Shown piece by piece: positions 58,177 through 61,320 of a stretch of 64,000 nt of DNA. Within the stretch, counting starts at the first letter, position 1; every line of letters begins with the position of its first letter. The DNA is from the human T2T-CHM13v2.0 reference genome, Homo sapiens. The DNA lies in assembly GCF_009914755.1 (NCBI RefSeq), contig NC_060934.1. One strand, 5' to 3'. Both the position numbers and the translations under genes were made by a program. Below the pieces are notes generated by a model. That model ran no database searches. It saw nothing but the letters and a program-made list of their open reading frames with translations, and was not told where the DNA came from.

Positions 58177-60901
58177 TAAAAATAATAATGTCAAAAGTAT
58201 TACGTGCCTACTATAAAGGACAGTAATAATACTGACACATGAAATGAGACCCAAAAGCCTACGCCAACCCTACCGCAATACCGTACTTTAATTTCTTTAT
58301 AATTTGTTCAGCTATTTAAAAAGATAATCCACAATCTCCTACCGCCATTAGAGCACAGGAAAAAAAAATTCAAAAATAAAGGAAAAACATGGCTCATATA
58401 TCTACAGAAGTCACAAAAATACTATAGGGCACATATACCCAGGCCTCAGCGGTGGGAAGAAAACATACAACCACCGGGCAAAATGTTTGAACACTGAAGA
58501 CGGGAATTTTTTAGGGCCATTTCAAGACCATGTTGAAGGTAACTGGGAAAGTCCTGGATAGAAATAGATTAAATAGCTAGATCATAAAATTTCAAAATTA
58601 AAAATGACTTATAAAAGTGATTCAATTTCTAAAAGCAGGCTTGTAGGACACAGGCAGTGAAAAAAACACATTGTAGGATGAAAATGTTAATGCAATTTCA
58701 TAACCAGTATTTTTTAAAGAATAGCAGTTGCACAGCTCATGGAACATAGATGGAACGTAGAAATAAAGAACAAAATTTCAAAAGCAAATGACGTACAGAT
58801 GGGTGGGAATAAAGAGAGTTATAGTATAAAGCATGTATTCCTTCCATTGTCGTATTTAATCACACAGCTCACAACAAAAATCTTTAAGACTGCCTGCAAT
58901 GAAAATATGCAAAGGCACCTGAAGGTCAAAGTTAAAAATGAAAATGTATCTTTCTCCGTAGTGCAAGCTCTAAATGTCTAGTTCTAGCAGTAGTATTCAC
59001 AGGTAAGAAAACCATCAGCTCCTAACAGACTTCCCCTGAAGGTTAATCCACACACCACCAAAGATTTTTCACTCAGTAAAATTTCTAACTTACTTCCCCG
59101 CTGCTTGCAGGCTTTTAGCTCCATAGGCCAAAGAAGCAATAAATAAAGACAGTTGTAAAATTTGTTTTAAAGGAGAAATTGATGAGTACCCCCATTCAAC
59201 TGCACACCCCAGGTCCAAAAGCAAATGAGTGATGCTGTGCCCTCCAAACTCCATTCATATCACGAAGGGACCCAGATGCCTAGCAAGTGGTCAAGCAGAA
59301 GCTCTCATGAAGATACTTAGCATTCTTAATGGTATCCTTACATTTAATCTTATTAAAACTACACACGCCCGCCAAAAACAAAAGAGAATATAAGGAATGG
59401 AAGCAGACATAGAGATTAACACTGATGTCATTTTTGTGTCAGATTATGTTCTTCAGAAAAGAACCAGAGATGATTTTAAAAGGTTAAATTTTATTCTAAT
59501 TCTGAGAAGATGCCACGGAAGCAAAAATCAAATTGCGAAATGACGATGGGGGCATTAGAAATACACCAGGGATGAAAATAAACCACCCCAGCATACCTAA
59601 TGGTACTTCCAATATGCAAGGAGAAAAACAAAATTTAAGAAAACGAGATACCCAATACTTGAGGGAGTTGTTGAGGTATAACCAATAAACCTAATGTTAC
59701 CTAAAAAGATATGAAAGAAAACATCTTATGAGTGTCTTTAATATACAAGAAACTGGGTCTGCACTGGAATGTGTGCTGTGTCACTTCAGCTTTGCCCACA
59801 AAGTTAACATCTGCCAAATGGGTATGATTTTCCCCATTTTGTATACAATGAAAATGAAGTTTGCATAGTTTATCTTTCTTTATTTCTATATAACCAGTCT
59901 TAGGGGTCAGAAACAGGACACACTCATTGGAGGGACAGGTTTCCAACCCTGAAACATGCTTCCCAGATTCACTATGTCTTTTGTTGTTAAATATATGGAA
60001 AAGTAGAATGCCATCTGGTACTCCTAAAAGTAACCCTGCACATGACTGGAAGCTCCCCAGAAAATGTGTGTGTCCTTCTAAGAAGAACGTCCACCAGAGC
60101 CCCACACTCCGGTCCTGTGCTTCCACTGTGGTTTCTAGTCCAGAATTCTTGGATAATAAAAGCAGAAAATATGTAGGGATCATGGAAAATAATGTGTCCC
60201 ATACATATAGGGTGTTTTGATCATTGTTTTTTTAAAAAATAATTTTAACACGTGTTAGAATACCAGGGATTCTATTATCAAAGCACAACAAAATAATCTG
60301 CTACTGGCGTTAATATATCCAGGTAACAAGTCTCTTAAAAGGTTGTTTTGGTTTTATTTTGGGTGTTATTGGGGACATAACAGATTTATCTTATAAAATA
60401 GAAGTTCTGGTATTTTATAATGAAAAGTAAGTTTAATTTTAAAACAATCTTGATGTTTTTAGTTTCTACATTTGGTGTTGCTAGAGATAAACACGACTAT
60501 TTTGCTTCTCTACAAATTTTATGAAGGTTTGCCAACTGGTAAATAATAATAAATCCCTTCCTTTCCACAGAACTTTTAGAATTTGGAGGCAAAGGGCTTA
60601 GTTTATTTTTAACCAAATAATATGAACAGTCATTTGGATCCTCATTGACTTCACGCTACAGAATTAACAAACCCAAAAAACCCACATCTTAACTACTATC
60701 TGGCAGCATCAGAATCTATCCTTAAGTCTCACCAATGATGGCAGATACCATGAAGCCCTATCTATTCCTATATCAGAATTTCTATAGCTCTTCCACGGTT
60801 TAATGCTGTGACCCCTCAGTCATTTCCCTGACCGATCTGAAGTTGTTGTAATCAGATTGCTGAATAAACCACCTCCTATTGTAATTAAGAAAATATAGGC
60901 A

Positions 60902-61022
60902 CTGAGGGGAGCCCCGGTGGCTCAGGCCGGTTGTCCTGGCGCACAAGGAGGCGAGGCTACGCATTCGAGGCCAACCTGGGCAACATTTAAAAGGCCTCAC
61001 ATTCGTTAAAAAAAAAGAAAGA
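60902..61022 (+). mobile_element. Retroposed snaR-related (ASR/CAS-like, FLAM-derived) small Pol III RNA copy
   Basis: GGAGCC..GTGGCTCAGGCCGGTTG..GGAGGCG..TTCGAGGCCAACCTGG resembles snaR rather than Alu. A tail present. TSD aagaaaata(t/c)aggca at 60887-60901 and 61023-61037. Confidence 0.72.
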
Positions 61023-61032
61023 AAGAAAATAC

Positions 61033-61320
61033 AGGCATCATGGCTCACACCTGTAATCCCAGTACTTTGGGAGGCTAAAGCAGGAGAATCACTTGAAGCC
61101 AGGAGTTTCAGACCAGTCTGGGAAACATAGCGGGACCCCACCTGTACAAAAAAATTTTTTTAATTAGCCAGGAGTGATGGTGTGCATCAGTAGTCCCAGC
61201 TGCTCAGAAGGCTAAAGCAGGACGATTGCTTGAGCACAGAAGTTTGAAGCTGAAGTGAGCTATGACTGCACCACTGCACCCCAGTCTGGGCAACAGAGCA
61301 AGAACCCAGCCTCTTAAAGA
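61033..61320 (+). mobile_element. AluJ SINE
   Basis: Diverged dimer directly after the snaR-like insert. Confidence 0.88.

What the first reader, a model, noticed from the sequence alone, without database searches (positions are those of the whole stretch)
60887..61037. TSD-flanked retrocopy of a snaR-ancestor-like Pol III RNA hidden at the head of an AluJ
Seen: a ~120-bp insert with an A tail, a 15-bp TSD (1 mismatch) and a TT/AAGA L1-endonuclease-type site. It has an A-box-like TGGCTCAGGCCGG, a B-box-like ATTCGAGGCC and 7 retained CpGs, whereas the neighbouring AluJ is CpG-depleted. It is an internally deleted Alu-left-arm derivative whose GTGGCTCAGGCCGGTTG and TTCGAGGCCA segments match my recollection of snaR (small NF90-associated RNA). 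Established: snaR genes derive from FLAM-C via the ASR and CAS intermediates, which were themselves retroposed. Inference: this is a dispersed ASR/CAS-type copy, probably masked as FLAM or merged with the Alu. It may still be Pol III competent and would be antisense to PARD3. The 3' segment (tttaaaaggcctcacattcgtt) may tag the source locus.
Basis: partly seen in the sequence, partly recalled or inferred. Interest (0 to 1): 0.7.

Follow-up and report, generated by a model that had tools for sequence, protein, structure and literature searches.

The report
Late snaR-ancestor retrocopy in PARD3 intron
This is one of about 80 human copies of a known, small, Alu-derived jumping element (ASR, the forerunner of the snaR RNAs), lying at the head of an Alu inside a PARD3 intron; it is likely silent, and its modest value is that it appears to record the last step before that lineage shortened into its next form.

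Summary
In detail: a 121-nt insert (60902-61022) between 15-nt direct repeats with one mismatch, at a TT/AAGA site, with 7 CpGs. It is not a private Alu derivative. Own-genome searches gave 80 family loci. All 77 full-length ones share a 19-nt deletion against the Alu left arm, the delta1 of ASR/CAS/snaR (Parrott 2011). The copy keeps the 3' segment that CAS lost (delta2), so it is ASR, not CAS. Its core already carries four CAS-type changes; 2 of 77 copies have this combination, the last ASR stage before delta2. The duplication includes the neighbouring Alu's first bases, so it likely inserted into the older Alu's endonuclease site. Transcription is unlikely: the B box is off-consensus, no terminator comes before 61155, and it lacks the snaR hairpin (z 0.24 against -2.47). 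The family is published and was submitted to Dfam; I could not check whether this locus is listed. Side finding: 10 of 19 other family copies with an adjoining Alu look co-inserted with it.

The parts
60885..60890 (+). L1-endonuclease-type site TT/AAGA (one mismatch to TT/AAAA; consensus recalled)
60887..60901 (+). 5' copy of the 15-nt target-site duplication
   Evidence: D4; nulls
60902..60906 (+). 5 extra bases between TSD and element; not seen directly upstream of snaR-A or of the parent-locus repeats; origin unexplained
60907..61007 (+). ASR element body, late stage; antisense to PARD3, intronic
   Evidence: hub annotation
60917..60928 (+). putative tRNA-type A box at +11 to +22, same letters as in snaR-A
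60952..60953 (+). junction of the 19-nt delta1 deletion relative to the Alu left arm
60963..60971 (+). B box with first base G-to-A (a CpG-type change); fails GWTCRANNC
60988..61007 (+). 3' segment kept in ASR and lost in CAS (delta2 region); closest to L022 and L084
61008..61022 (+). A-rich tail
61023..61037 (+). 3' copy of the TSD; overlaps the head of the neighbouring Alu and its likely 5' TSD
61032..61313 (+). diverged Alu, about 75% identical to a local Alu majority (label AluJ from recalled diagnostics, not tested against Dfam); weak own TSD of 7-9 nt at 61023 and 61339
61155..61161 (+). first run of 4 or more T downstream, in the Alu's middle linker; would end a read-through RNA of about 252 nt

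Best explanation
This is a copy of the ASR (Alu/snaR-related) element flanked by a 15-nt duplication, likely inserted by LINE-1 reverse transcription into the endonuclease site at the head of a likely older Alu, and it is likely silent today. Shown: it has the 19-nt delta1 deletion, keeps the 3' segment that CAS lacks, carries four CAS-type core changes and none of three later CAS changes, and its duplication covers the Alu's first bases. Inferred: a Pol III RNA from the ASR source gene (the chromosome 19 parent locus of Parrott et al.) was primed on its A-rich end by target-primed reverse transcription, at about the time CAS arose (30-45 Mya by the paper's dating). The copy then drifted neutrally and lost its consensus B box by CpG decay. 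It likely does nothing beyond recording what the source gene looked like at that stage.
For: 40 scored matches of 63 candidates in the own genome, 81-93% identical apart from the self-match; 80 distinct loci pooled from six searches. Delta1 in all 77 aligned copies, one with a further 4-nt insertion. Profile scores, window copy left out: ASR 87.1 bits over model 1-99, CAS 82.4 bits over the core only, Alu left arm 15.5 bits. Eight characters order the 77 copies into a mostly nested series; state 68A/54C/23G/38C with the 3' segment occurs only in the window copy and L022. A core-only tree puts these two with the 36 CAS-type copies (88/89, unstarred). ASR and CAS definitions: PMC3045588 Results. 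TSD lies before the Alu (score 7.5), not after it (0.5-1.0). Signs of silence: B-box mismatch, also seen in 49 of 77 copies; fold no better than shuffles; Parrott found Pol III-type EST support for only one CAS locus.
Against: No primate orthologue or empty site could be examined, so age and order of insertion rest on sequence logic. The Alu's own TSD is short and A-rich (score 4.0). The tree has 80 columns, 6 of 75 branches starred and an unsettled bootstrap. The stage table has off-series rows (for example L085, L027, L021), and 54C, 23G and 38C lie at or near CpGs. I relabelled 4 copies by eye after an automatic 3'-segment score misplaced them. The published ASR alignment (Fig. 3C) and datasets were not readable, so ASR is assigned from the text's definition. 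The core is unusually intact (0 non-CpG differences from a majority that includes itself; L003 also has 0), and snaR-A is transcribed in vitro without upstream sequence, so some transcription is not excluded.
Confidence: 0.88

Rival explanations
1. The copy is still transcribed by Pol III in some tissue. With no terminator of its own it would read through the tail and the Alu left arm to the T run at 61155, giving a roughly 250-nt ASR-Alu RNA antisense to PARD3 pre-mRNA.
For: A box identical to snaR-A; 6 of 8 core CpGs kept; no non-CpG change in the 80-nt core. snaR-A works from an intragenic promoter (PMC2094060 passages).
Against: B box fails consensus; 28 of 77 copies have an intact one. 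No T4 until 252 nt. No snaR-like hairpin, z 0.24 with 104 of 200 shuffles folding as well. One neighbour of 19 keeps as many CpGs. The main text of a Pol III atlas preprint does not mention PARD3 (its tables were not seen).
Confidence: 0.07
2. It is a CAS copy whose 3' segment was carried along from the flank of a source locus.
For: The core scores nearly as well on the CAS profile (82.4 bits) and groups with CAS in the tree. Such carry-over exists in the family: L010 carries the flank of L017.
Against: The segment lies before the A tail, in the same columns as the 3' end of other ASR copies and of the Alu left arm. It matches L022 and L084 beyond all 2000 shuffles, though not L002 (1866 of 2000). 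A pattern spanning core and segment hits two unrelated loci, each with its own TSD.
Confidence: 0.02
3. ASR and Alu were inserted together as one chimeric unit, as seems true for several other family copies.
For: 21 of 80 loci have a same-strand Alu just downstream. A 7-9-nt repeat lies upstream of the element and after the Alu.
Against: The 15-nt repeat closes right after the ASR tail and includes Alu head bases. No element TSD after the Alu (score 0.5). The Alu is far more decayed than the ASR.
Confidence: 0.02
4. An ordinary FLAM or Alu left arm with private deletions.
For: It does match an Alu-left-arm profile weakly (15.5 bits). The Rfam snaR-A match is far below its cut-off (16.9 against 98 bits).
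Against: The same deletion and substitutions occur in 76 other copies. Distance 0.13 to the nearest ASR, 0.37 to the Alu majority.
Confidence: 0.01

Closest known systems
ASR (Alu/snaR-related) element, Parrott et al. 2011, PMC3045588; submitted to Dfam by Frith 2025, PMC11905727
   Same: FLAM-C/Alu-left-arm derivative with the 17-19-nt delta1 deletion, 3' segment kept, A tail, TSD, dispersed in introns and intergenic DNA
   Different: Its core already has four changes typical of CAS; 27 of 41 ASR-type copies here have none of the eight derived characters. The text I read describes no ASR sub-stages.
CAS (catarrhine ancestor of snaR)
   Same: Delta1; core states 68A, 54C, 23G, 38C; A-box position; TSD-flanked dispersal
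   Different: Lacks the ~13-nt delta2 deletion (about 101 nt against ~85); lacks 74T, 37T, 28C of most CAS copies
snaR-A (Rfam RF02556)
   Same: Same lineage; identical A-box letters; weak Rfam match (16.9 bits)
   Different: No epsilon1/epsilon2 expansions, no long hairpin, no own terminator, B box off-consensus, not in the chromosome 19 duplicon
FLAM-C / Alu left monomer
   Same: Ancestor; alignable end to end
   Different: 19-nt deletion and about 37% mismatch to a local Alu majority; FLAM-C itself was not available as a tool-given sequence

Membership tests
ASR | delta1 internal deletion of 17-19 nt against the Alu left monomer | tested here: met
   19 nt
ASR | about 13 extra nt at the 3' end compared with CAS (no delta2) | tested here: met
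   about 16 extra columns against CAS_HsX
ASR | multicopy, dispersed, flanked by short direct repeats | tested here: met
   41 ASR-type of 77 aligned copies
ASR | C-to-G change at Alu position 19 and G-to-C at A-box G6 (Parrott Fig. S6 legend) | tested here: inconclusive
   A C-to-G change after TGGCTCA is visible; the figure's numbering could not be seen, so the G6 site was not placed
ASR | match to the published or Dfam ASR sequences; locus in Parrott's datasets | not testable with these tools
   Dataset .doc unreadable; no Dfam library
ASR | present in simians, absent in prosimians | not testable with these tools
   no other primate genome held
CAS | delta2 3' deletion, length about 85 nt | tested here: not met
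   the CAS profile covers only 60908-60991
CAS | consensus B box GWTCRANNC at +57 to +65 (most copies, by the paper) | tested here: not met
   first base A
snaR | epsilon1 and epsilon2 expansions | tested here: not met
snaR | stable long hairpin | tested here: not met
   z 0.24 against -2.47 for snaR-A
snaR | 3' oligo(A) then oligo(T) terminator | tested here: not met
   first T4 at 61155
snaR | Pol III transcription and NF90 binding | not testable with these tools
   no ChIP, RNA or CLIP data

The most novel reading that the evidence does not exclude
This copy is the best-kept missing link between ASR and CAS. With L022 it shows that the source gene gained the CAS-type substitutions first and lost its 3' segment afterwards, and it preserves the sequence that delta2 removed. 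The same comparison suggests an undescribed habit of the lineage: at least 10 of 77 copies were inserted fused to an Alu RNA, often through the small RNA's U-ended 3' end, far more often than the rare U6/Alu chimeras, with one daughter traceable to the EST-supported CAS gene on chromosome 8. Separate odds: missing link about 0.65, frequent chimeras about 0.55.
Probability: 0.4. Interest if true: 0.45.

Novelty: new member of a known kind. Interest (0 to 1): 0.24.

Why it matters
For PARD3 it probably does not matter. For snaR evolution it fills in the least resolved step: the papers read describe ASR to CAS as one deletion plus substitutions, while human retrocopies order these changes and this copy marks the last stage before the deletion. 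It also gives a presence/absence marker for dating that step in primates. The side finding of ASR/CAS-Alu joined insertions, if real, would offer a natural set of Pol III RNA-to-Alu fusions, a class reported as very rare for U6 (PMC4476161).

Tried and rejected
Rfam scans: only a sub-threshold snaR-A match over the insert, uninformative alone. The Rfam snaR-A genome search gave 54 matches, 53 on C19 and one on C2, and did not list this locus. Source-tag idea: rejected. Chimera reading for this locus: rejected. A 20-nt TSD absorbing the 5 extra bases: rejected, 1 of 5 match. Selection on the copy: not supported; the 3' segment differs at several positions from its closest relatives. The automatic ASR/CAS score mislabelled 4 copies and the B-box index was off by one; both corrected. 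Alu-start positions were wrong for many loci and were redone. Three truncated copies (L087, L115, L120) were dropped before alignment; L014 was left out of majorities and profiles. L137 (10 kb beyond the window) was fetched to place the next PARD3 exon but not analysed. A paper search on tandem Alu insertion returned nothing. Protein, structure and prokaryote tools were not relevant and not used.

Full report
Observation. The window shows a 121-nt insert at 60902-61022 between 15-nt repeats at 60887-60901 and 61023-61037 that differ at one base. The 5' repeat starts at TT/AAGA. Such a repeat arose at 16 of 5000 random window positions; an A-down-weighted score as high arose at 17 of 600. The insert has 7 CpGs and the neighbouring Alu has 2 in 287 nt. 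By the hub's table the site is in a PARD3 intron, 40.5 kb from the nearest exon in the window, on the opposite strand.

Family. Rfam gave only a weak snaR-A match (16.9 bits, cut-off 98). A DNA search of the own genome gave 40 scored matches of 63 candidates. Five more searches with part of the insert and with four relatives brought the pool to 80 loci including this one (fetched; printed). This is a lower bound, since each search scored at most 40. The family starts at 60907, leaving 5 unexplained bases after the 5' repeat. Most copies have their repeat within 2 nt of the start; L009 and L011 have 4-nt gaps. I dropped three truncated copies and aligned 77 with a majority of 53 local Alus. All 77 share a 19-nt deletion.

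Literature. Parrott et al. 2011 (PMC3045588; read: abstract, Results parts 1-2 of 3, two Discussion sections, the supplementary figure PDF) define ASR by a 17-19-nt deletion (delta1) from FLAM-C, CAS by a further ~13-nt 3' deletion (delta2), and snaR by two 8-nt expansions. They report TSDs at most ASR and CAS loci. PMC3337139 (parts 1-2 of 3) repeats this. Frith 2025 (PMC11905727; passages) says ASR and CAS were absent from Dfam and were submitted. The dataset file listing loci is unreadable, so this locus may already be listed. L020 matches the HsX sequence printed in Fig. S5 by eye, which anchors my CAS class to the published one.

ASR, not CAS. The insert keeps a 3' segment (60988-61007) in the columns where other ASR copies and the Alu left arm have sequence and CAS and snaR-A have a gap. 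It matches the segments of L022 and L084 better than all 2000 shuffles, L011, L004 and L105 at 26, 15 and 10 of 2000, and L002 not at all (1866 of 2000). After 4 relabellings by eye, 41 copies are ASR-type and 36 CAS-type. Profiles built without the window copy score it 87.1 bits (ASR, full length), 82.4 (CAS, core only) and 15.5 (Alu left arm); among the top 8 of 32 ASR-profile hits in the window only this one prefers ASR to Alu. The segment is therefore inherited, not a transduced tag.

Stage. Eight characters sort the copies into a mostly nested series: 27 copies have none, 16 have all eight. The window copy and L022 alone have 68A, 54C, 23G and 38C with the 3' segment; 7 copies have the same four without it. 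A core-only tree groups these two with all CAS-type copies (88/89, unstarred). The tree is weak and some rows break the series, so this is a likely order, not a proven one. It fits stepwise change at one source locus, as Parrott inferred. The parent locus today holds a snaR-F-like gene, a deleted middle copy and a degraded CAS-type copy; none keeps the segment.

Insertion. The duplication covers the likely TSD of the Alu and its first bases, and no element repeat follows the Alu. The Alu is about 75% identical to the local majority and nearly CpG-free. The inference is that the ASR RNA was reverse-transcribed into the endonuclease site the Alu had used earlier. L1 target-primed insertion is established knowledge; no empty site could be checked.

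Activity. The A-box region equals that of snaR-A. The B box starts with A and fails the consensus, as in 49 of 77 copies. The first T4 is at 61155, 252 nt from the start. The RNA folds no better than shuffles (z 0.24), as do two other ASR copies, whereas snaR-A gives -2.47. In favour of some activity: 6 of 8 core CpGs kept (P 0.036 uncorrected; 1 of 19 neighbours equal), no non-CpG change in the core, and an intragenic promoter suffices for snaR-A in vitro (PMC2094060 passages). Parrott reports EST evidence for only one CAS locus. I put transcription at about 7%. Searches for PARD3 with Alu and Pol III gave one unrelated review in the listing, and PMC12424700 has no PARD3 in its main text (tables not seen).

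Side finding. 21 of 80 loci have a same-strand Alu just downstream. Of 19 examined besides this locus (L087 dropped), 10 have the element's TSD (score 6 or more) after the Alu's tail, and 1 has an Alu-specific TSD, a pure A run, against 24 of 43 background Alus (one of the 43 is L012's own Alu, which slipped the filter). Six of 19 have A5 plus 1-4 T directly before the Alu, against 0 of 43. In L010 the spacer reproduces the tail, TSD and T run of L017, both share a 5' variant, and the Alu follows with no A between. This suggests RNA-level joining. Later Alu insertion into an A tail leaves an invisible TSD and is not excluded for most cases; the control is not matched for that. PMC4476161 (passages) calls U6/Alu chimeras very rare. 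PMC13174262 has no 'snar' in its main text. Searches listed no paper on such ASR/CAS fusions; most subscription journals are not covered.

Verdict. A real, ordinary retrocopy of a known low-copy family, at an informative stage of it. Interest 0.24.

Noticed in passing
L002, L008, L010, L012, L014, L015, L030, L110, L117, L119 (G000 C7:132.52M, C4:65.64M, C10:64.14M, C10:98.46M, C19:56.10M, C11:116.20M, C7:132.69M, C1:40.14M, C1:27.99M, C7:45.72M): ASR/CAS copies joined to a same-strand Alu with the element's TSD after the Alu tail (10 of 19 examined), often with A-run plus T at the junction; likely co-inserted chimeras, though later insertion into the A tail is not excluded.
   Followed up: partly
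L010 (C10:64135344) and L017 (C8:17762413): L010 carries the tail, 3' TSD and T run of L017 and shares its 5' variant, so L017 was likely a secondary source gene. L017 is likely Parrott's EST-supported Hs17397126Ch8, by chromosome and approximate place.
   Followed up: partly
L124:4938-5035 (C19:53.6975M, third parent-locus repeat): The degraded CAS-type copy shares a 3' variant with six dispersed copies (L006, L015, L018, L021, L077, L085; branch 97/87), suggesting a second source gene in the tandem repeat.
   Followed up: partly
L124:3080-3145 (middle parent-locus repeat): The element here is internally deleted to about 55 nt but keeps its A-run and T-run end.
   Followed up: no
L031-L060; C19:50.74-50.95M and 53.09-53.23M: The Rfam snaR-A search finds 54 matches, 52 over cut-off, all but one on C19, more than the 30 human snaR loci of the 2011 review.
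   Followed up: no
L003, L022, L079, L118, L121: Tails of the form A-run, TT(T), A-run, as expected if U-ended Pol III transcripts were adenylated before insertion.
   Followed up: no
window 60985-61030, minus strand: On the PARD3 sense strand the tail reads as a pyrimidine tract followed by AG, a possible cryptic splice acceptor; no evidence of use.
   Followed up: no
L081, L123, L029: ASR copies with an expanded A run before the 3' segment, the spot where the window copy also has extra bases; this slippage-prone run borders delta2.
   Followed up: no
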